In this document: positions 1,892 through 13,305 of the stretch, one piece after another | Layout of the letters: each line of letters begins with the position of its first letter | Position numbering within the stretch: position 1 is the first letter of the stretch | Origin: an uncultured bacterium | GTDB lineage: Bacteria; Joyebacterota; Joyebacteria; Joyebacterales; Joyebacteraceae | Length of the DNA stretch: 64,000 nucleotides | NCBI GenBank assembly: GCA_964399265.1 | Contig: CAYNQF010000001.1 | Span: 1,195-65,194 of the forward strand | Direction: 5' to 3' | The notes under the pieces: model-generated | What the model was told of the DNA's origin: nothing | The model's input: only the letters and a program-made list of their open reading frames with translations | The model's database searches: none | Made by a program: the position numbers and the translations under genes

Positions 1892-3255
1892 ATGTGCGTT
1901 CCCAGAGGGGTTCGTGTCTCGGTCCTTGGCGGCCTGATCGCGTCGGCTGTGGTGTTGTCTCTCTCGCTATCCACGCGCGCGCAGAGCTCACATGAGCCGG
2001 CGCCCGGGAAGGACTATCCCGTGGTAGGTGAGGACGCGGCGTGGACGTGGTTCGGCGGCCCGAGGGCCGTGAGCTACGACGGCGAATTCCACAGAACGTA
2101 CACGGGGTGGATCTCCTCCAAGGGCGAGATCAAGATCGCCTCGATCGACCGGGACACGGGCGCGGTCGAGGTCAGCACGCTCTGGGTCGAGCAGGACGCT
2201 GACGACCACTCCAATCCGTCGATCCTCGTACGGCCGGACGGGCGCCTCATGGTCTTCTGCTCGCCCCATTGCTGGCGCGCGGTCCGCAACGCACAGGGTG
2301 GAAGAGTGGGCGGTATCTACTACCGCGTGTCGGAGCGTCCCGAGGACATCTCGTCGTGGGGGCCGCCGCAGGTCATGGACCAGAACGTGCCGGGCTCCTA
2401 CGGGTGGACGTACCCGAAGCCGGTGCAGCTGTCCGCTGAGAACGACAGGATCTACCTCTTCTGGAGGGGAGGGACCGGCAGCCCCATCCTCGCCATCTCG
2501 GACGACGGCGCCGAGTGGGTGTTGGGAGGGATCCTCATCGACACCGGTGAGAAGAGGCCGTACATGGTCATAGCCTCGAACGACGAGGACGAGATCCACA
2601 TAGCCTACACCCGCGCCCATCCCGACGAGAGTTCGGAGAACGGCATCTACTACCTCAAGTACCGTGACGGCGCGTTCGTCCGTGCCGACGGCAGCAAGAT
2701 CAAGGACATATGGGAGCTTCCGGCCGGCCCGAGTGAGTGCGACCTCGTCTACGACGGCTCGTCCTCCGGCAAGTCGTGGGTGTGGGACATAGCCTTCGAT
2801 GAGAACGGAGACCCGGTCATTGTCTACGCCGTCTTTCCGACAGAGGACGATCACCGCTACGAGTATGCCAGGTGGCGCGACGGTGAGTGGAAGACGACCG
2901 AACTCGTCGAGGGTGGACCGGCCTTCCCGCGCAGGGGAAATGGCGTCAGCCGTGAGCAGTACTACTCGGGCGGCATCGCGCTGGACCATTCCAACCCAGA
3001 CGTGGTCTTCCTCTCCAGGCTGGTCGACGGCGTCTATGAGATCGAGCGTTGGGAGACGACCGATCGTGGAGACACGTGGACCTCGCTGGCCGTCACCTCG
3101 GGCTCGACGTTCGACAACGTCCGTCCGGTCGTGCCGCTTCACCGATCTCCGGGAGATCCACTCGTCCTCTGGATGTCCGGCGTCTACTACAGGTACGACA
3201 TCTTCGGGACAGGCATCCGTCACATGCCGGACGGAGTGTCCGGGGTGGGTGAGTG

Positions 3256-3256
<1 letters not shown>
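1892..3256 (+). CDS. secreted BNR/sialidase-like beta-propeller protein (BNR_4-like)
   Basis: N-terminal signal peptide. A GAGAGGTG RBS sits 6 nt upstream of ATG 1892. Motifs HSNPSIL..DGRL recur like BNR_4-family blades. The stop overlaps the next start (TGATG). Confidence 0.5.
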
Positions 3257-5879
<2,623 letters not shown>

Positions 5880-5963
5880 GGACGGAACGACGAGCGGCCG
5901 CGCCGGAAGGTGAGGGGCGGTTCGCCACAGAGTGTCTGTCCAGCCCCGTCAGGGGCGTCGGAA

Positions 5964-6004
5964 GAAGAGGGGGGAAGGTCCTTCTTGGGCCATCCCCCCT
6001 CTTC
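5964..6004. terminator. bidirectional stem-loop in convergent gap (12-bp stem GAAGAGGGGGGA / TCCCCCCTCTTC with nested GAAGG/CCTTC)
   Basis: A perfect inverted repeat read directly from the sequence between the gdhA stop (5879) and the end of the minus-strand 1000-aa gene (6024). There is no clear U-tract. Confidence 0.45.
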
Positions 6005-6023
6005 ACGTTCTGCGGCGGTCGGG

Positions 6024-9000
6024 CTACTCGCTCGACGCGGCCGAGGCGATCGAGCGGCCGGGCTTGAGGACTATGCCGTGACCGGTCTTGCTGTTGATGG
6101 CGATCTCGAGCGGCTGGTCGAAACGGAGGTGACGTACGAACTCGGTCTCCCGCACCGCCGGCTGCGTGTCGAGCCAGCCGTGGTCGAGCATCGCCGAGGC
6201 GTCGTCGGGCGCGAGCGTGAAGTAGCCGATGCCGAACGAGGTGATGTTCTGGAAGAAGTGGGTGCCCTGCGACGGGTCGACCCTGATGTCCTCGAGCGGC
6301 GCCTCGACTATGCACTTCGTTCCGGAGATCTGTCCCCATTTTACGGGGATGCCGAGCCACGGGTCAGCGCTGCCCCAGCGACCCGGACCGATGAGAACGT
6401 ACGGATGCTCGCCCTTCAAGAGCGCGTTCATCTCGCCGATCTGGTCGGCTATCTGCTGGGTCTTCGAGCGGTCGAATGCCGGCGTCCTCACGTAGACGAT
6501 GTCGCGCACGCCTTCGATCAGCCCGTGCCCCAGCGCGCTCGCCGACACCGCCACCGCCGCCGCGGAGTCGACTCCCTCTACGTCGACGTCGTCGGTCGTG
6601 CCTCCGAATACGAGGGGGCGTATCTGGAGAAAGGCGAGGCTGTGTCTCTCGCTCTCGCCCTCGGCGAGGTTGACCGCGAACTCCATCTCGACGTGACAGG
6701 TGAACCCTGCCTTTCCGACCTCGAGCAGGAAGCGGAGCGCCTCAGGGAGCCGCACGACGTCGCCCGACAGGAGGCCCGCCATCGTGATGAGCGGGTTCCC
6801 GTCCTTGCGCAGTCCCTCGTAGACCCGGTCGTTAGCCGGGGAGTACGTCGAGGCGACCGGCGCCAGAGTCCCGTGTTCCTCAGCGACCTCCTTGCTCAGG
6901 AGAACGAGGTTACTCTCCGGCGCGTCGGACGGCGAGCCGACCGGACCCGGTAGCGAGAGGTCGAGAGCGTAAAACTCGCGTTGCGAGTTGTTGAGGTAGT
7001 CGCTGGTCGACGAGAACTGGTAGAGCCTGTTCGGGTGCGCAGGCGAGAACCGCACGGTCCTGCCGCCCTCGACGACCATCCTCCCGAGACCGAGCGCAAC
7101 CGAGGCGACGCCGTCCTCGGCCGACGCCCCCTTGACCGGATAGTAGTCATAGGAACGGGCCACGCCCGCCGCGTTCGGGTACAGGTAATCGCCGTGCCGG
7201 CGGCCCGCTATCTGCTGGATGATCACGGCCATTTTCTCTTCCTCGAGCCTGTTCGGCGTCGACTCTATGTAGCTCTTCGAGTCGGCCGAGTAGGTCGAGG
7301 CGTAGACCAGCCGCACCGCCCGCGACAGCTCATCGAGCCGGACCTCTATGTCCTCGTCCATGTTCGGGATCATGTAGGTGTCGTAGATGCCGGCGAACGG
7401 CTGGAACGAGGAATCCTCGAACAGACTGGAGGAACGCACGGCCAGCGGATAGCGTACGCGCTCGAGGAACGTCCGTAGCTCGTCGAGCGTGTCCTGCGGC
7501 AGCGGGGCGCGAAGGAATGCCTCCCGTATCTTGTCGTCGTCGGTCTCCGCCAACGCCCGCTGGGTGAGCCCCGACCTCTTCATGAACTCGTCGAAGACCC
7601 CCGTGGCGACCACGGCGCTTGGGGGAACCGAGATGTGTACACCATCGATTCTGTCCTCGATGTCGTAGGCGTTCAGCAGCGAGTTGATGAACGCGAGGCC
7701 GCGGCCCTTGCCGCCCAGCGAGCCGGTGCCTATGCGTGTGAACGAGGCGCCCGCCTCGAACGTGTCGCGCGAGAAGTCCTCCACCAGTCCGGCCCTCGTC
7801 TGGGTCCGGTAGTCCCTGACGCAGGAGATGAGATATTCGCGCATCTCCTGCGTCGAGCCGAACTCGTCGGTCGTCACGGGCCTTATGGCCTTGGCGATGT
7901 CGAATTCGGTCCGTGCCATGAGCCACGTCGAGAAGTCGTTTCGCGTGGCGTGGAGGACGAGCGACTCGTCGGGAACCCGCTCCAGCGCGTCCAGGAGCGA
8001 CTTCAGGTCGGTGGCGCGGGCGAGCTCGTTGCCCCGCTCATCGACGAATGTGAAGTCCCCGAACCCGAGGTGCTCGCGCATGAACCTGCGGACATCGTCC
8101 AGGAGCGTGGGTGAGGTCTTCTGGCAGAACGCGGCCCCGGCGTCGCCGGCCTCTATCGCGAGTTCCGCGTCCGACGACTGGACGAGCACCGGTGTGCGGG
8201 AGTCGGCCTCCTTGACCATCCTGGCGAACGCGATGCCGGCGCGCGGATACGACTTGCCTCCGCGCGGGAACTTGCCGTCTGCGATGACGCCCAGGAGGTG
8301 TTCGTGGGTCGCCTTGTAGATCTCCTCGGCGTCCTCATACGTCGAGGCGAGCAGGATCTTCGGGCGGGCGCGCATGCGCATGAGCTTCTGCATGCGGTTG
8401 ACACCCTCGGACATGAGCGCCTGCGTCTGCGCCATGATCTCGGCGTACAGCATGGGCAGGTACGATGAATAGAAGCGGACCGAATCCTCGATCAGGATGA
8501 TGCTCTTGACGCCTGCGAGATCGGCGTCGTGGTAGCTGTTCATCAGGTCCTCGGCCCACTTGATGATGGCTAGGAAGACCCTCGCGTCGCCGAGCCATAC
8601 GAAGATGCGGTCGATGCCGCCCCTGTCCGACCTCTCTTTGAGGAGCGACAGCTCGCGCGTGTCGTACGCCAGCAAGACAACGGGGATCTCGGGCGCGACC
8701 TCCCGTACCCGCCTGCTGAACTCGAAGACGTCCATCTCTCCGACGCGCGGCATCGTTATGATGAGGTCCGGGTTCGTGTCCGTTATCTCCTCGACGGCTT
8801 CCTCGGCCGTGGAGACGCGGACGATGGTGGGGGCGGACGAGAGGTTCAGCTCCTGGTACTCGGTGAAGAGCATCTCACCCAGGTTCCCGTCCTCCTGGAA
8901 GGTGAACGAGTCGTAGAGGCTCGAGACCAGCAGTATGCGCCTCACCCTCCACGGCATGAGGTCGGAGAACGGAACACGCTTACGCTCTATCCTGCCTGCC

Positions 9001-9026
9001 ACTTCCTCGAGCGGGCGATACCTCAA
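6024..9026 (-). CDS. tandem CheY-like receiver domains fused to PEP-synthase-like PPDK_N ATP-grasp domain; C-terminal region without recognisable phospho-His (SHAAI-type) mobile domain
   Basis: Two N-terminal receiver-like modules (LLVSSLYD..., IILIEDSVRF...). The PPDK_N hallmarks GGKGRGLAFIN and VRSSSLFEDS are present. TTG start at 9026 with an AGGAGG RBS 9 nt upstream. Confidence 0.7.
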   Translation of the reverse strand: MRYRPLEEVAGRIERKRVPFSDLMPWRVRRILLVSSLYDSFTFQEDGNLGEMLFTEYQELNLSSAPTIVRVSTAEEAVEEITDTNPDLIITMPRVGEMDVFEFSRRVREVAPEIPVVLLAYDTRELSLLKERSDRGGIDRIFVWLGDARVFLAIIKWAEDLMNSYHDADLAGVKSIILIEDSVRFYSSYLPMLYAEIMAQTQALMSEGVNRMQKLMRMRARPKILLASTYEDAEEIYKATHEHLLGVIADGKFPRGGKSYPRAGIAFARMVKEADSRTPVLVQSSDAELAIEAGDAGAAFCQKTSPTLLDDVRRFMREHLGFGDFTFVDERGNELARATDLKSLLDALERVPDESLVLHATRNDFSTWLMARTEFDIAKAIRPVTTDEFGSTQEMREYLISCVRDYRTQTRAGLVEDFSRDTFEAGASFTRIGTGSLGGKGRGLAFINSLLNAYDIEDRIDGVHISVPPSAVVATGVFDEFMKRSGLTQRALAETDDDKIREAFLRAPLPQDTLDELRTFLERVRYPLAVRSSSLFEDSSFQPFAGIYDTYMIPNMDEDIEVRLDELSRAVRLVYASTYSADSKSYIESTPNRLEEEKMAVIIQQIAGRRHGDYLYPNAAGVARSYDYYPVKGASAEDGVASVALGLGRMVVEGGRTVRFSPAHPNRLYQFSSTSDYLNNSQREFYALDLSLPGPVGSPSDAPESNLVLLSKEVAEEHGTLAPVASTYSPANDRVYEGLRKDGNPLITMAGLLSGDVVRLPEALRFLLEVGKAGFTCHVEMEFAVNLAEGESERHSLAFLQIRPLVFGGTTDDVDVEGVDSAAAVAVSASALGHGLIEGVRDIVYVRTPAFDRSKTQQIADQIGEMNALLKGEHPYVLIGPGRWGSADPWLGIPVKWGQISGTKCIVEAPLEDIRVDPSQGTHFFQNITSFGIGYFTLAPDDASAMLDHGWLDTQPAVRETEFVRHLRFDQPLEIAINSKTGHGIVLKPGRSIASAASSE

Positions 9027-9080
9027 GGCGGGAGACCTCCTGCGCGCCGCGCGGCGCGCGTGTGGCTCGCGGCTCAGAGC

Positions 9081-9110
9081 GGCTCGGCCCGGCGTTGGCC
9101 GGGCCGAGCC
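9081..9110 (-). terminator. perfect 13-bp GC stem (GGCTCGGCCCGGC / GCCGGGCCGAGCC) with 4-nt loop just downstream of transglutaminase-like gene B
   Basis: Read directly from the sequence. It sits between the stop of the 9120..11045 gene and the start of the 6024..9026 gene. An 18-bp GC palindrome lies at 9042..9059. Confidence 0.45.
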
Positions 9111-9119
9111 TGGTGTTAC

Positions 9120-11045
9120 CTAGACCTTCTTGAGCAGTATCAGGTTGTTTCTCGGAGCCGCGACACCGTCGGAAGCGGCCTTGAACGCCGCGTAGAGGTC
9201 GGTCGGGACCTGCATCTGCTTGATTACGACCTTCGCGCTCCAGGTGACCGTGTGCGTCTCCTTGTCCCACGAGCAGTCTATGCTCATGTCAGCGACGTCA
9301 CTCGTGGAGGATACCGCGTCGGGCAGCCTGACGACGTCGTAGCCCTCGGGTATGTCGAGGCTGACCGACAGGTCCGACTCGCTCTCGCACGGCATCTCGA
9401 ACGGATACCTGCGCTCGGCCAGCTTGGGATACATGTCGAACGACGCGAACTCGAACGGGAACCTGGGCACGCGCACGATCATCATGTCACCCTGCGGAAC
9501 CGCGAAGTCGGGGGCGTCAATAACCTGGCGAACCGTCACCGGAGCAGTGAGGTCGGCGAGGTCGGAGAGCGTCCGCTCGACGCTCTTCGCACCGGCGGAG
9601 ACGACGTTCGCATAACCGTCGAAGACCTTGCTCTCCTCGGAGTCGGTGGCGTCCTTGAGCGTCACGCGGGTCTTTCTGTCGAAGTACCCCGTCAACTCGC
9701 AGGCGGCCACGACGTCGGCCGAGCCATCGGGCGTGATCGCTATCTCCATCCACTTGTCGGCCTGGTTGTTCGCCGGCTCGAAGGCCGGGATCTTGACGAG
9801 TTCGCCCAAGCCTCCGTCCTTCACGACGAGAGCTGTATTCCCGTGGCCCCACCTCAGATACCCGTAGCGCACGTCGTCGAGCGACGGGTCGAGGAAATCG
9901 TATCCGCCCGCCGACGGGACAGCGACGAAGAGCCGGTCGAACTGCTTGAGCGTAGGCACGGATTCGACGAACCTGCCGCGCATCTGCTTGATCGCCGCCG
10001 GGTAGGCGTCTATGCCGGCCGCACGGAGCATACTGACCAGAAGGACCGCCTTGTCACGCGTGTCGCCGTACTTGTTCGCGAGCACGGTGGCAGCGTCGTT
10101 CGGCTCGTAGCCGCCCAGGCCGAGGGTCAGATAGACGTATCGAACGTTCTTCGCCACGTCCAGGAACAGCGTACGTATCTTGTCCGAGTCGGTCGTCGCG
10201 CCGGACGTCAGCTCCGCGACCCGCGCGGCGATCTCGCCGTCGGTCTGGACGTGCGGGTAGAAGACGTCCGCCATGAACGCGGCCGGATCATCCCACGATG
10301 TGTATGAGGAGAACATGACCGCGGGCAGAAGCTCGGACCGCGGCGGCATGTTGTCCTCCTCGACGAGGGCCGGCACGTCGTGCGTGGAGAACACCACGCT
10401 GCCGTCCTTTGCGTCCTCCTTGATCTCAACGTCGCCGAGCATCCCGGCCATCGTTGCGTATGTAGGCGTGTAGGCACCGGGCGGGTAGGAGAGCGTGAAC
10501 TCGGCGTTCAGAATGGGAGCCGTGCCGCCCATCGCCTCTATAGAGGAGAAGCTGCGGTCCGCGGCGGCCTTGGTGTTCTCGACCATCTGGAGGTCCATCG
10601 TGGAGCCCGGTCCTGCGACCGGGAACGAGATGACCTTCTCGAGGACGTTGGCGTAGATGGTTGCGCCCTCGAGGAACGACGGCGTGATGTCGTTGATGCC
10701 GTCCTCCTCTACGGGAACCTCTCTGCCCGACGATCTCACCGTGAGACCGTGAAGCATCTCGATCGTTGTGCGGTCGGTGTCGTAGTAGAACGACGGGTTG
10801 CTGTACTCCTCGCGCCCCATAAGGGTCAGGACGCGCGTGAGCCTGTTTCTCGTCGTCGTGAACGACCCGTCGTCGGCGACGTCGGTCATCTCCTGCAGGT
10901 AGAGAATGATGCCCGAGTCGTCCGGGTACTGCTCCTTGCCGGGCGCGTCCTTGATGAGCGCCTCGACGTCGACATTGCGCCACTGAGCGGCCGCAACCGA
11001 CGCCGCGAGGGCCAGGATGACGATCGCGCATAGTGCCTTCTTCAT
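9120..11045 (-). CDS. secreted DUF3857/transglutaminase-like family protein, catalytic Cys and His not conserved (likely inactive paralogue)
   Basis: Signal peptide MKKALCAIVILALAASVAAA. The core is GDTRDKAVLLVSMLRAAGIDA (Thr in the Cys position), with no His in the FxHG position but the Asp retained (YDFLDPS). The ATG follows the TAG of the upstream paralogue directly; AGGAGGG RBS. Confidence 0.7.
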   Translation of the reverse strand: MKKALCAIVILALAASVAAAQWRNVDVEALIKDAPGKEQYPDDSGIILYLQEMTDVADDGSFTTTRNRLTRVLTLMGREEYSNPSFYYDTDRTTIEMLHGLTVRSSGREVPVEEDGINDITPSFLEGATIYANVLEKVISFPVAGPGSTMDLQMVENTKAAADRSFSSIEAMGGTAPILNAEFTLSYPPGAYTPTYATMAGMLGDVEIKEDAKDGSVVFSTHDVPALVEEDNMPPRSELLPAVMFSSYTSWDDPAAFMADVFYPHVQTDGEIAARVAELTSGATTDSDKIRTLFLDVAKNVRYVYLTLGLGGYEPNDAATVLANKYGDTRDKAVLLVSMLRAAGIDAYPAAIKQMRGRFVESVPTLKQFDRLFVAVPSAGGYDFLDPSLDDVRYGYLRWGHGNTALVVKDGGLGELVKIPAFEPANNQADKWMEIAITPDGSADVVAACELTGYFDRKTRVTLKDATDSEESKVFDGYANVVSAGAKSVERTLSDLADLTAPVTVRQVIDAPDFAVPQGDMMIVRVPRFPFEFASFDMYPKLAERRYPFEMPCESESDLSVSLDIPEGYDVVRLPDAVSSTSDVADMSIDCSWDKETHTVTWSAKVVIKQMQVPTDLYAAFKAASDGVAAPRNNLILLKKV

Positions 11046-13028
11046 CTAGCCCTCCTCTTTCATGAGAATGACCTCACCCTTGACCGACCTTCCCGCCAGC
11101 CTGACCGCCTCTTTGAGCGCCTGGTAATCGGCGGGAGATATCTGGAACGAGTCGAGCGCCATCGTGCGGTCGTAGCGCACGGCCGGCGCCCCGTCGTTCT
11201 CGGAGGCGGGGAGGAACGAGTACTCCATCTTGAGGCCGATCGAGCCTTGCTGGAACTCGACGTCGTCCGGGAAGTTCCGGACCTTGAACCCTGCCGGTAT
11301 GTCGACGATACCCTCCTCCTCGACGCCCAGCGTCACGCCGAGCGCGATGGGGTACTTCCTCTCCTCGAGAGACACGAATCTGCCGAAGAGAATGCCCGAG
11401 AGTATGTCGAACTGGCCCGCCGCCGCCGGGACCCTGAACAGGCTGTATGGGTCGGCGTCCAGCATGTAGCCGTCGATCTCGTACGAGAAGTCGATCGTCA
11501 TCGGCTGATAGAGGTCCTCGTAGTCGGACACCGCGAAGTCGCTCATGACGGCGCCGGCGTAGAGCTGCTGCACCATGTTCTGCGCCATCATCTTCACCTG
11601 CTCGGGGCCCACCGAGCTTGCGATCGTGCGGAGGATCTCCTCGTACATGCCGCGCCCCGTGATCTTGACGCTCCCCTTGAGCGTCCCGTTGGCCGCGAGC
11701 GTCGAACGGTCGGTGATGACGCCGGAGTTCTCCGACGCCGGCACGTGCGGTGCCTGCTGGATGTCCTCGCCCTTCTCCGTGGCGATGAGCACCCACCTGT
11801 CACCCACGTAGGAGGCGTAGACCGAACGGCTCATCTCCATCGTCGGGTCGATGAACTTGTACGAGCCGTCGTCGCCTTTGATGGCCACGATGCCGTGTTC
11901 GAAGTAGACGGTCGGAATCTCCGTGTCGGTCTTCCTGCTCGGGTTGATGAAGACGACCCAGGCCGGGACGCCTATCTCCTTGAGCATCGTCACCATGAGG
12001 ACCGCTTTGTCCCTGCAGACGCCGTACTCCTTCTCGAGCGTGTACGCGGCGAAGTGCGGCTCGAGGAACATGCTGCGGTCCATCGCTATCCCCAGGTACC
12101 GCACGTTCTTGATGATCCAGTAATGGATCGCCTGGATCTTGTCTTCCTTCGTCTCGAGCCCGTCCGTCACCTCCGCCACAACGTCCCTGATCGAGTCCTC
12201 GACCACGCACTTGTCGTTCGAGATCTCCCACGCGTAGCGGGAGAGCTCCTCCCAGCTCTGGACCGTCGAGACGATGACTCGCGTGGCGACCTGCGCCATC
12301 GGGGCCATGCCGACCTCTGGCTCGATCTTGGGAGCGTTCTTGCGCGTCCACGTGTAGATCTTGTAGTCGCCCTCGGTCTTCTCCGAGAACTCGGCGTCAC
12401 CGTCCTTCACGATGTGCTTGAGGGGCATGTCCGCGGGGCCCTTGACGGTCACGGTCACGTCGATCATGGGCTCCGTGTACTGCATGAAGTACATGCCGTT
12501 GAAATTGTTGTCCAGGAGCGGCTCGTACTTCTCGTGGACCAGCGTCTCGACCGCGTCTCCGACCTCGAGGCCGGGGAAGACGATCGTCTTCTCGCGGAAG
12601 TCGGTCTCGTAGATATCCATGGCGGCGATGGCGGGAGGCGTGCCGTCGGTGATGAGGTCGTCGCCCACCACGATCTCAGTGCCGTCGACCTTGATGACCC
12701 GGGCCAGGATGACGTCCACGGTCCCGTACCGTCTGTGGTAGTTGAACGAAGCGTCGGCGTTTCTGTCGATGCCCTCTTCGGTCAGGATCTTGGTGAGGGA
12801 GTGTGAGTACTGCTCGTAGGCGCCGGACTCGTCGAACTCGACGTCGGTCTGGTCGAGCACCACGACGGAGTTGGCGTTCGGGTTGTCCTCCGCCTCCCCG
12901 GCCGCCGCCAGCAGCTCCAGGGCGTCGTCGAGCGCAAGCGGCTCGAGCGCCGCACCTGCCGCCTGGGCGAGCAGCGAGACGGCCAGAAGGGCCACCAAGC
13001 CCGCCAGACAGCGCATTCGGATACGCAT
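11046..13028 (-). CDS. secreted DUF3857/transglutaminase-like cysteine protease family protein with intact Cys-His-Asp triad
   Basis: Core GVCRDKAVLMVTMLKEIGVPA ... FEHGIVAI ... YKFIDPT. Signal peptide after ATG 13028, with an AAGGAG RBS 6 nt upstream. The longer ORF to 13109 is probably an over-extension. Confidence 0.7.
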   Translation of the reverse strand: MRIRMRCLAGLVALLAVSLLAQAAGAALEPLALDDALELLAAAGEAEDNPNANSVVVLDQTDVEFDESGAYEQYSHSLTKILTEEGIDRNADASFNYHRRYGTVDVILARVIKVDGTEIVVGDDLITDGTPPAIAAMDIYETDFREKTIVFPGLEVGDAVETLVHEKYEPLLDNNFNGMYFMQYTEPMIDVTVTVKGPADMPLKHIVKDGDAEFSEKTEGDYKIYTWTRKNAPKIEPEVGMAPMAQVATRVIVSTVQSWEELSRYAWEISNDKCVVEDSIRDVVAEVTDGLETKEDKIQAIHYWIIKNVRYLGIAMDRSMFLEPHFAAYTLEKEYGVCRDKAVLMVTMLKEIGVPAWVVFINPSRKTDTEIPTVYFEHGIVAIKGDDGSYKFIDPTMEMSRSVYASYVGDRWVLIATEKGEDIQQAPHVPASENSGVITDRSTLAANGTLKGSVKITGRGMYEEILRTIASSVGPEQVKMMAQNMVQQLYAGAVMSDFAVSDYEDLYQPMTIDFSYEIDGYMLDADPYSLFRVPAAAGQFDILSGILFGRFVSLEERKYPIALGVTLGVEEEGIVDIPAGFKVRNFPDDVEFQQGSIGLKMEYSFLPASENDGAPAVRYDRTMALDSFQISPADYQALKEAVRLAGRSVKGEVILMKEEG

Positions 13029-13305
13029 TTCCGCTCCTTTCATAAGAAAGCTCGGGTAATCGAGGATACTTCGATTGTTACAAACGCATAACAGGACACG
13101 ATTATGCACGCTACCGCTCCGACGGGCAAGTGGAGGCTCCGAGGCCCGGGCGAAGGCCCTTCAAGGTCTGCGCCGCGGGCCCTCACGCGCACACCTGAGG
13201 AAACCGGGGCGGTCGTCTTTCATGTGGGACGACGTCCTGTTATAGCATGCCCCGCGACGCGGGGCGGTCGGCCCCCGGCCGGGGACCGGCGAACCAGGAG
13301 GAACG

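What the first reader, a model, noticed from the sequence alone, without database searches (positions are those of the whole stretch)
6024..9110. Two receiver domains fused to a PPDK_N ATP-grasp domain without the phospho-His swivel domain, preceded by strong hairpins
The 1000-aa protein has two CheY-like modules followed by a PEP-synthase / pyruvate-phosphate-dikinase nucleotide-binding domain (GGKGRGLAFIN, VRSSSLFEDS). I could not find the GG(R/M)TSHAAI-type mobile His domain; the C-terminal ~300 aa are unassigned. This suggests a phosphorylation-regulated ATP-grasp enzyme or kinase rather than a genuine PEP synthase. Its 5' region carries a perfect 13-bp GC hairpin (9081-9110) and an 18-bp GC palindrome (9042-9059), between the upstream stop and a TTG start. 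This could be a terminator plus an attenuator or operator.
Basis: partly seen in the sequence, partly recalled or inferred. Interest (0 to 1): 0.5.

Follow-up and report, generated by a model that had tools for sequence, protein, structure and literature searches.

The report
Receiver-controlled phospho-histidine dikinase linked to glutamate dehydrogenase
This 1000-residue protein belongs to a large, unstudied bacterial family: a two-component receiver fused to an ATP-driven phosphoryl-transfer engine that does keep a very divergent phospho-histidine carrier domain, and its gene sits next to glutamate dehydrogenase in many phyla, which suggests an unrecognised control system for that enzyme.

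Summary
The ORF (6024-9026, minus strand, TTG start), the PPDK_N ATP-grasp domain, two CheY-like modules and both GC hairpins are real.

- Only the second receiver is functional-looking. E180, D250, S/T284 and K303 are invariant in 78 homologues. The first receiver is a pseudo-receiver.
- The hairpins are not a conserved feature of this gene. An 89%-identical relative has a 1-nt gap there, and an 83% relative has a different hairpin.

The main new result is gene context. A glutamate dehydrogenase gene lies within 500 bp of the homologue in 50 of 77 species-representative genome loci, from more than 12 phylum-level groups, in four orientations. A second GDH type sometimes takes its place. A receiver-less paralogue pairs with that second type.

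Best model: an orphan response regulator whose output is an ATP -> His923 -> acceptor dikinase acting on GDH or its reaction. I found no literature on the family. The function is inferred, not shown.

The parts
6024..9026 (-). Gene for the 1000-aa protein. Order of parts: pseudo-receiver, receiver, DUF5752/OrfY-like domain, PPDK_N ATP-grasp, divergent swivel His domain.
   Evidence: ORF; domains; >7900 homologues; family present in at least 596 GTDB species representatives.
8514..8945 (-). REC1 (aa ~28-171), a pseudo-receiver. It has the (beta-alpha)5 fold but S35/S36 replace the acidic pair, T91/M92 replace the acceptor Asp, and there is no Lys after beta5.
   Evidence: Secondary structure; weak Pfam Response_reg hit on aa 66-121; residue counts over 78 sequences, never Asp at positions 91/92.
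8067..8510 (-). REC2 (aa ~173-320), a receiver with a full phosphorylation site: E180/D181, D250 (codon 8277-8279) at the end of beta3, S284 at the end of beta4, K303 after beta5. It has an extended alpha1 insertion.
7722..8066 (-). Middle domain (aa ~321-435), DUF5752/OrfY-like, with the motif RNDFSTWL. Its function is unknown.
   Evidence: Pfam DUF5752 is weak (17.9 bits). Some homologues carry a precomputed PF19027 hit. The profile hits PDB 4cso 'ORFY protein' at E=1.9e-5.
6600..7721 (-). PPDK_N ATP-grasp nucleotide-binding domain (aa 436-809). Catalytic motifs are invariant: GGK440xR442G, R531-S532, E537-D538, Q604, E780/E782, Q801.
6027..6599 (-). C-terminal domain (aa 810-1000), a divergent swivelling phospho-carrier domain plus a beta extension. 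Invariant motifs are G-P-G-R-W-G (880-885) and P-S-Q-G-(S/T)-H923-F-F-x-N. The His923 codon is 6258-6260.
9081..9110 (-). Perfect 13-bp GC hairpin with a 4-nt loop, starting 9 nt after the stop codon of the upstream gene (9120-9122). Probably a terminator-like or transcript-stabilising hairpin for the upstream gene.
   Evidence: No T-tract. Not repeated elsewhere in the window. Absent or different in close relatives.
9036..9059 (-). 18-nt GC palindrome (9042-9059) directly abutting the Shine-Dalgarno sequence AGGAGG (9036-9041) of the gene.
   Evidence: Sequence. Folds as a 7-bp stem. Not conserved in L001 or L002.
4518..5879 (+). gdhA, NADP-specific glutamate dehydrogenase (453 aa), convergent with the gene. 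It is the conserved genomic partner of the family.
   Evidence: NCBIfam PRK09414, 760 bits against a cut-off of 536. Adjacency statistics.
5954..6012 (.). Strong hairpin between the two convergent stop codons (gdhA 5879, target 6024). Likely a bidirectional terminator.
   Evidence: Fold z = -3.9. It also appeared as a chance hairpin match in Rfam.

Best explanation
The gene encodes an orphan response regulator whose output is a dikinase of the PPDK / PEP-synthase / rifampin-phosphotransferase mechanistic class.

Shown here by computation:
- The domain order is pseudo-receiver, then a receiver with a complete Asp250 site, then a DUF5752/OrfY-like domain, then an ATP-grasp domain closest to that of rifampin phosphotransferase, then a very divergent C-terminal swivel domain.
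- The swivel domain has an invariant (S/T)-His923 that opens a helix.
- Glutamate dehydrogenase genes are the conserved neighbour of the family across many phyla.

Inferred from the chemistry of this enzyme class:
- The ATP-grasp domain transfers phosphoryl from ATP to His923, forming AMP.
- The swivel domain carries the phosphoryl group to an acceptor.
- Phosphorylation of Asp250, by an unlinked histidine kinase or a small phosphodonor, switches this activity on or off.

Inferred from gene context:
- The acceptor or partner is glutamate dehydrogenase itself, or less likely a ligand of its reaction. The protein would then adjust ammonium assimilation or glutamate catabolism after translation in response to a signal.

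The two 5' hairpins are a local, non-conserved terminator or stabiliser structure after the upstream gene. They are not a dedicated regulatory element of this gene.
For: Architecture:
- Pfam PPDK_N, E=1e-37.
- REC2 residues E180, D250, S/T284 and K303 are invariant in 78 sequences of 38-82% identity. They sit at canonical strand ends.
- The REC2 profile's six best PDB hits are receivers.

Swivel domain:
- The C-terminal model has pLDDT 88.
- His923 is 78/78 and is preceded by S or T in 76 of 78. It is the first residue of helix 923-930.
- The domain followed a PPDK_N domain in all eight other proteins examined, including ~585-aa proteins made only of ATP-grasp plus this domain.

GDH link:
- A GDH gene lies within 500 bp in 50 of 77 GTDB species loci, and in 44 of the 64 loci with at least 2 kb on both sides. 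It lies within the flanks in 59 of 77.
- In metagenome loci the figure is 28 of 63 adjacent.
- Orientations vary: upstream same strand, downstream convergent, upstream divergent, downstream same strand.
- The loci come from Eisenbacteria, Acidobacteriota, Bacteroidota, Ignavibacteria, Gemmatimonadota, Myxococcota, Actinomycetota, Proteobacteria and others.
- In L028, L039 and L079 a different GDH type (~30% identity) is adjacent instead. Its archaeal/GdhB-like character was checked for L039 and L079.
- The receiver-less paralogue lies directly downstream of a ~428-aa GDH of that second type in L086 and L092. Motif scans point to the same arrangement in L093 and L145, but it was not verified there.
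- No other neighbour is widely conserved.

Hairpins.
Against: - Foldseek against the PDB found nothing.
- HMM searches against the PDB and Pfam found nothing.
- hhalign against the E. coli PpsA His domain gave probability 0.2.
- I could not superpose coordinates to verify that His923 occupies the catalytic position.
- No member of this enzyme class is known to phosphorylate a protein (my knowledge). The characterised members I know of act on small molecules or glucans.
- Gene adjacency does not say whether GDH is the target, a sensor, or merely co-regulated.
- 18 of 77 genome loci have no GDH within the flanks.
- No cognate kinase is linked: HK-like neighbours appear in 3 of 80 loci by a low-sensitivity search.
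- There are no experimental data on any family member.
Confidence: 0.5

Rival explanations
1. Self-contained His-to-Asp relay. The ATP-grasp domain loads His923, and the swivel domain passes the phosphoryl group to Asp250 of the protein's own receiver. The protein would be an unconventional, ATP-grasp-driven 'histidine kinase plus receiver'. Its phosphorylated N-terminal half would then bind and regulate GDH or another partner.
For: Both an invariant His923 and an invariant, complete Asp250 site are in one chain. No cognate histidine kinase is linked. Receivers are known to accept phosphoryl from phospho-His donors (established two-component chemistry, my knowledge). Some database entries are even named 'histidine kinase'.
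Against: Receiver-less ~585-aa paralogues keep the His motif and are also GDH-linked. The ATP-grasp/His module therefore has an acceptor other than a fused receiver. I know of no precedent for a swivel domain feeding a receiver.
Confidence: 0.15
2. Small-molecule dikinase. Like RPH, PigC/HapC or HpeHI, the enzyme phosphorylates a metabolite. Here it would be one connected to the GDH reaction (2-oxoglutarate, glutamate or a derivative), and the receiver tunes flux.
For: The characterised relatives of the ATP-grasp domain that I know of phosphorylate small molecules or glucans: RPH (PMC4844700) and HpeHI (PMC12167813). The best NCBIfam partial hits are RedH, PigC and PEP synthases. The DUF5752-like domain or the C-terminal beta extension could bind a ligand.
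Against: No domain resembling a known substrate-binding domain is present (no PEP/pyruvate barrel, no RIF-binding domain). Two paralogous dikinases each pair with their own GDH type in one locus. That pattern fits protein-specific recognition better than a shared metabolite.
Confidence: 0.2
3. One reading: an ATP-grasp kinase or ligase that works without any phospho-His carrier. The C-terminal region would be an unrelated domain.
For: There is no Pfam PEP-utilizers hit and no canonical GGxTSHAAI motif. Foldseek and profile searches give no link to swivel domains.
Confidence: 0.08
4. The two 5' hairpins form a dedicated attenuator or operator that controls this gene.
For: The structures are strong. 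The palindrome abuts the Shine-Dalgarno sequence. An 18-bp perfect palindrome could in principle bind a dimeric regulator.
Against: The whole spacer is missing in the 89%-identical orthologue, and the 83% orthologue has a different hairpin. There is no Rfam match, no promoter-like site and no repeat elsewhere.
Confidence: 0.1

Closest known systems
Rifampin phosphotransferase (RPH; PDB 5hv1/5hv6; PMC4844700), with the related PigC/RedH/HapC ligases and the two-component HpeHI dikinase (PMC12167813)
   Different: There is no RIF-binding or substrate-binding domain between the ATP-grasp and swivel domains. The swivel domain is undetectable by sequence (PSQG[ST]HFFxN instead of GGxTSHAA). The N-terminal half is pseudo-receiver + receiver + DUF5752. 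The genomic partner is GDH, not an antibiotic or pigment pathway.
PEP synthase / pyruvate phosphate dikinase (PpsA, PPDK)
   Different: No PEP/pyruvate-binding TIM-barrel domain is present. PEP synthase NCBIfam models score 58 bits or less against cut-offs of about 600-1060. The protein is therefore not a PEP synthase.
Response regulators with enzymatic outputs and tandem receiver/pseudo-receiver modules (e.g. PleD; comparison from my own knowledge)
   Different: The output is a dikinase, not a cyclase, phosphodiesterase or methylesterase. The pseudo-receiver comes first. Pfam does not recognise REC2 at all.
Glutamine synthetase adenylyltransferase GlnE (analogy only, from my own knowledge)
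   Same: The idea is the same: a dedicated covalent-modification enzyme that tunes an ammonium-assimilation enzyme in response to nitrogen or carbon status.
   Different: There is no sequence or fold relationship, the chemistry differs (phosphoryl rather than adenylyl), and modification of GDH is not shown here.

Membership tests
PEP synthase / PPDK (PEP-utilising dikinases) | PPDK_N ATP-grasp nucleotide-binding domain | tested here: met
   Pfam PF01326, E=1e-37, aa 436-809. Catalytic residues are invariant.
PEP synthase / PPDK (PEP-utilising dikinases) | PEP-utilizers mobile domain recognisable by sequence (PF00391, GGxTSHAA motif) | tested here: not met
   No Pfam hit in the protein or in 24 C-terminal homologue segments at E<=10. 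Profile against the PDB gave none. hhalign against the PpsA His domain gave probability 0.2.
PEP synthase / PPDK (PEP-utilising dikinases) | Swivelling beta/beta/alpha phospho-carrier fold with a conserved His at the start of a helix | tested here: inconclusive
PEP synthase / PPDK (PEP-utilising dikinases) | PEP/pyruvate-binding TIM-barrel domain (PF02896) | tested here: not met
   No Pfam or NCBIfam coverage beyond aa 460-654 of PEP synthase models. No unassigned region is long enough.
RPH / PigC / HpeHI small-molecule dikinases | RPH-like ATP-grasp domain plus a C-terminal swivel His domain | tested here: met
RPH / PigC / HpeHI small-molecule dikinases | Dedicated substrate-binding domain homologous to the RIF-binding domain | tested here: not met
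   NCBIfam RPH, PigC and RedH models align only to aa 460-654. The ATP-grasp domain is followed directly by the swivel domain.
Response regulator receiver (REC) | (beta-alpha)5 CheY fold | tested here: met
Response regulator receiver (REC) | Acidic pair, acceptor Asp, Thr/Ser and Lys at canonical positions | tested here: met
   REC2: E180 78/78, D181 74/78, D250 78/78, S/T284 78/78, K303 78/78. REC1 does not meet this: S/A at 35-36, T/S/I at 91, T/M/N at 92, no Lys.
Response regulator receiver (REC) | Phosphorylation of the Asp by a cognate histidine kinase | not testable with these tools
   No linked kinase: 3 of 80 loci have an HK-like neighbour. Biochemistry is needed.
DUF5752 / OrfY family | Sequence match to PF19027 / PDB 4cso | tested here: inconclusive
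   The window protein scores 17.9 bits against a cut-off of 23. Many homologues carry PF19027. The family profile hits 4cso at E=1.9e-5 with a shared RNDFSxWL motif.
Intrinsic (Rho-independent) terminator | GC-rich hairpin followed by a U-tract | tested here: not met
   The hairpin is present, but the tail is GCUCUGAGCC and the terminator scan did not call it.

The most novel reading that the evidence does not exclude
The family would be a dedicated covalent-modification system for glutamate dehydrogenase. A phospho-histidine swivel dikinase phosphorylates GDH protein (or docks on it) under control of a two-component receiver. Paralogous dikinases are specialised for the two GDH types. This would be the first protein-directed member of the PPDK/PEPS/RPH enzyme class, and a widespread counterpart for GDH of GlnE-type control of glutamine synthetase.
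Probability: 0.25. Interest if true: 0.85.

Novelty: new variant of a known kind. Interest (0 to 1): 0.65.

Why it matters
Post-translational control of bacterial NADP-GDH is poorly understood compared with glutamine synthetase.

From memory, and not verified here, reversible in-vivo inactivation of GDH has been reported in Bacteroides without a known mechanism.

This family has at least 596 hits among GTDB species representatives. Its C-terminal domain matches 1006 clusters at 50% identity. Its only widely conserved neighbour is GDH. That gives a concrete, testable candidate regulator.

The result also extends the PPDK/RPH dikinase class in two ways:
- to a receiver-controlled form;
- to a swivel domain so diverged that current HMM libraries miss it. 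Many database entries are therefore labelled only "PEP/pyruvate-binding domain-containing protein", or wrongly "histidine kinase" or "NarL/FixJ response regulator".

Tried and rejected
Searches on the C-terminal domain that gave nothing:
- Pfam on the whole protein and on 24 C-terminal segments.
- HMM profile against PDB sequences.
- Foldseek against the PDB, with no hit better than E=0.015 and rmsd ~15 A.
- hhalign against the E. coli PpsA His domain, probability 0.2.

Literature searches found no paper on this family or on a GDH link. The terms tried were PPDK_N + response regulator, pyruvate-binding domain + GDH, receiver + PEP synthase, DUF5752, GDH + dikinase + receiver, gdhA + PEP synthase + neighbourhood, OrfY, and GDH inactivation in Bacteroides.

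Hairpins:
- REP-like repeat rejected, because there are no extra copies beyond chance.
- Known RNA family rejected.
- Canonical terminator or promoter not called.

Other negatives and limits:
- Linked histidine kinase rejected, 3 of 80 loci (low sensitivity).
- Other conserved neighbours: none beyond GDH. The next best is a LuxR-type regulator in 11 of 80 loci.
- GDH residues specific to linked GDHs: 18 positions differ from E. coli GdhA. With one outgroup this is not informative, so I did not use it.
- A genuine PEP synthase was considered and rejected.
Full report
**Observation**

The ORF 6024..9026 on the minus strand encodes 1000 aa from a TTG codon. An AGGAGG lies 9 nt upstream. Residues 1-23 (MRYRPLEE...FSDLMPWRV) are conserved in homologues. 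The TTG start is therefore right, and the 977-aa version of the identical protein in the databases (P0001) is probably called 23 codons short.

Pfam finds PPDK_N at aa 436-809 (E=1e-37). It finds only a sub-threshold Response_reg hit at aa 66-121 (26.7 bits against a cut-off of 30.2) and a weak DUF5752 hit. It finds no PEP-utilizers domain. NCBIfam models for PEP synthase, RPH, PigC and RedH align only to aa 460-654, with scores far below their cut-offs.

The 13-bp perfect hairpin at 9081-9110 and the 18-nt palindrome at 9042-9059 are as described. The hairpin is the longest of only six perfect hairpins with stems of 9 bp or more in the window.

**The two receiver modules**

I extracted 78 family members from GTDB species representatives, 38-82% identical to the query. 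In these:
- REC2 keeps E180 (78/78), D181 (74/78), D250 (78/78), S/T284 (78/78) and K303 (78/78).
- In the model D250 closes beta3, S284 closes beta4 and K303 follows beta5. These are the canonical positions.
- A profile of REC2 ranks six receiver domains first in the PDB and aligns D250 with their acceptor Asp, though only at E 0.05-0.6.
- REC1 has S/A/C at positions 35-36 in place of the acidic pair, T/S/I at 91 and T/M/N at 92 in place of the acceptor Asp, and no Lys after beta5.

REC1 is therefore a pseudo-receiver.

**The C-terminal 190 residues**

- no Pfam hit in 24 homologous segments;
- no PDB hit with a family profile;
- no hhalign signal against the E. coli PpsA His domain;
- nothing with Foldseek.

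The structural evidence points the other way.
- The domain models confidently on its own (pLDDT 88).
- The lower hits include aconitase/LeuD, RraA, transferrin-receptor apical and chaperonin apical domains.
- From my own knowledge, the extra C-terminal domain of 2e28 is of the PEP-utilizers type, and the lower hits are the other members of the "swivelling beta/beta/alpha" fold.

Within the domain, the motif P-S-Q-G-(S/T)-H-F-F-x-N is essentially invariant. His923 is 78/78 and is preceded by S or T in 76 of 78. His923 is the first residue of helix 923-930, after a flexible Gly-containing loop that follows a beta strand. From memory, this is the arrangement of TSH in PPDK, Enzyme I and RPH.

The domain matches 1006 clusters at 50% identity (E<=1e-10). 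In each of the eight other proteins I examined it follows a PPDK_N domain. These include ~585-aa proteins that consist only of ATP-grasp plus this domain. They also include 1500-1650-aa proteins with two such modules.

I conclude, at about 0.8 probability, that a highly diverged phospho-His swivel domain is present. The evidence is structural similarity of moderate strength plus motif position and strict domain coupling. I could not superpose coordinates.

**Other domains**

The segment aa ~321-435 belongs to DUF5752. A family profile hits PDB 4cso ("ORFY protein, transcription factor") at E=1.9e-5 through a shared RNDFSxWL motif. I found no paper on its function.

**Genomic context, the main new finding**

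In the window the gene is convergent with an NADP-specific glutamate dehydrogenase gene at 4518-5879 (NCBIfam PRK09414, 760 bits).

The protein family is very widespread. More than 7900 proteins were retrieved. The 80 kept loci are labelled as Eisenbacteria, Acidobacteriota, Bacteroidota, Ignavibacteria, Calditrichia, Gemmatimonadota, Myxococcota, Bdellovibrionota, Zixibacteria, Krumholzibacteria, Fibrobacteria, Actinomycetota, Phycisphaerae, Chlorobiota, Gamma- and Alphaproteobacteria and a Syntrophomonadaceae MAG.

A tblastn search with the window's GDH gave these counts:

| Loci with a full-length homologue | Total | GDH within 500 bp | GDH within the flanks |
|---|---|---|---|
| GTDB species representatives | 77 | 50 | 59 |
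| GTDB, at least 2 kb on both sides | 64 | 44 | 51 |
| Metagenome contigs | 63 | 28 | 35 |

A single-copy gene would be expected within 8 kb of a given gene in well under 1% of genomes of several Mb. That figure is an estimate, not a computed control.

The arrangement varies among the GTDB loci with a GdhA-type neighbour within 500 bp:
- 32 upstream on the same strand;
- 6 downstream and convergent, as in the window;
- 5 downstream on the same strand;
- 3 upstream and divergent.

In several loci the adjacent gene is a different GDH type, about 30% identical to GdhA. In the first tally these were L028, L039 and L079. NCBIfam confirmed the archaeal/GdhB-like character for L039 and L079.

No other neighbour is broadly conserved. 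Histidine-kinase-like neighbours occur in only 3 of 80 loci.

The two transglutaminase-like genes upstream in the window are shared only with close relatives and not with the more distant ones looked up.

**Paralogous pairs**

Locus L092 carries four genes on one strand:
1. a full-length receiver-dikinase (991 aa);
2. a GdhA-type GDH (451 aa);
3. a second ELFV-family dehydrogenase (429 aa);
4. a receiver-less dikinase (596 aa).

The same pair, a ~428-aa GDH followed by a receiver-less dikinase, occurs in a Terriglobia genome (L086). The L086 and L092 proteins are 64% and 57% identical respectively. L086 also has the GdhA plus full-length pair. Motif scans suggest the same arrangement in L093 and a partial one in L145, but I did not verify those.

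So the catalytic ATP-grasp/His module itself, not only the receiver half, is tied to GDH. Different paralogues go with different GDH types.

**Mechanism**

Shown computationally: the domain order, the conserved catalytic residues and the GDH linkage.

Inferred from the enzyme class (RPH: ATP + substrate -> AMP + Pi + phospho-substrate through a His on a swivel domain, PMC4844700; HpeHI, PMC12167813):
- the ATP-grasp domain loads His923;
- the swivel domain delivers the phosphoryl group to an acceptor.

Inferred from two-component logic: phosphorylation of D250 gates this activity. REC1 and the DUF5752-like domain would act as adaptor or ligand modules.

Inferred from context: the acceptor or partner is GDH. 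I favour the GDH protein over a shared metabolite for two reasons. No known substrate-binding domain is present. Paralogous dikinases also pair one-to-one with distinct GDH types. This preference is weak, because no protein-directed member of this class is known to me.

**Hairpins**

The 13-bp hairpin starts 9 nt after the upstream gene's stop codon and lacks a U-tract. The palindrome abuts the Shine-Dalgarno sequence.

Comparison with close relatives:
- In the 89%-identical orthologue (L001) the upstream stop and the TTG start are 1 nt apart, so the whole spacer is absent.
- In the 83% orthologue (L002) a different 10-bp GC hairpin occupies the spacer.

There is no Rfam match and no repeat elsewhere in the window.

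The most economical reading is a lineage-specific terminator-like or transcript-stabilising hairpin. It would partly uncouple the gene from the upstream genes. It is not a conserved attenuator or operator. Transcript mapping would be needed to say more.

A separate strong hairpin at 5954-6012 lies between the convergent stop codons of gdhA and this gene. It looks like a bidirectional terminator.

**Verdict**

- The physical observations are confirmed.
- The key negative claim (no swivel His domain) is most likely wrong.
- The regulatory reading of the hairpins is unsupported.
- The protein is not a PEP synthase. It is a receiver-controlled variant of the RPH-like dikinases and belongs to a large uncharacterised family.
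- The conserved, multi-arrangement linkage to two types of glutamate dehydrogenase is absent from the literature I could search. It makes the family a concrete candidate for a GDH control system.
- Novelty: new variant of a known kind. Interest: 0.65.

Noticed in passing
L092:4792-12986 (metagenome contig Ga0164313_10000009); L086:14985-18166: L092 carries a tandem cluster: full-length receiver-dikinase, GdhA-type GDH, a second ~429-aa GDH type, and a receiver-less 596-aa dikinase. L086 (a Terriglobia genome) has the same second pair. This suggests paralogous dikinase-GDH pairs.
   Followed up: partly
window 5954-6012: A strong GC hairpin (fold z -3.9) lies between the convergent stop codons of gdhA (5879) and the target (6024). 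It is probably a bidirectional terminator. It also appeared as a chance 'mir-1249' match in Rfam.
   Followed up: partly
window 8958-9026 (first 23 codons): The identical protein in public databases (P0001) is 977 aa and so starts at Met24. Conservation of residues 1-23 and the AGGAGG before the TTG indicate that the deposited start is 23 codons too short.
   Followed up: yes
proteins P0125, P0136, P0143 (1523-1654 aa): These proteins contain two PPDK_N plus divergent-swivel modules in tandem. One also has a C-terminal nucleotidyltransferase (NTP_transf_2) domain. They represent other architectures of the same catalytic module.
   Followed up: no
window 9120-13109 (-): Two consecutive DUF3857/transglutaminase-core-like genes (641 and 687 aa) lie directly upstream. 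In L001 the second one ends 1 nt before the target's start codon, so the genes are probably co-transcribed there. The synteny is seen in the close relatives looked up but not in more distant ones.
   Followed up: partly
database names of homologues: Family members are variously named 'histidine kinase', 'DNA-binding NarL/FixJ family response regulator', 'CheY-like chemotaxis protein' and 'DUF5752 family protein'. None of these describes the architecture. No DNA-binding or HATPase domain was detected in the window protein.
   Followed up: partly
GDH genes next to family members: GdhA-type GDHs linked to the family are unusually similar across phyla. Their median pairwise identity is 72%, against 58% to E. 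coli GdhA. This could reflect a distinct subfamily or joint transfer with the dikinase gene.
   Followed up: no
window 1892-4335 (+): Two ORFs overlap by 4 nt. By synteny with L002 they correspond to a BNR_4 gene (460 aa there) and to an 826-aa BNR_4 + Glyco_hydro_88 gene. The window's second ORF is only 360 aa, so it may be shorter or called differently here.
   Followed up: no
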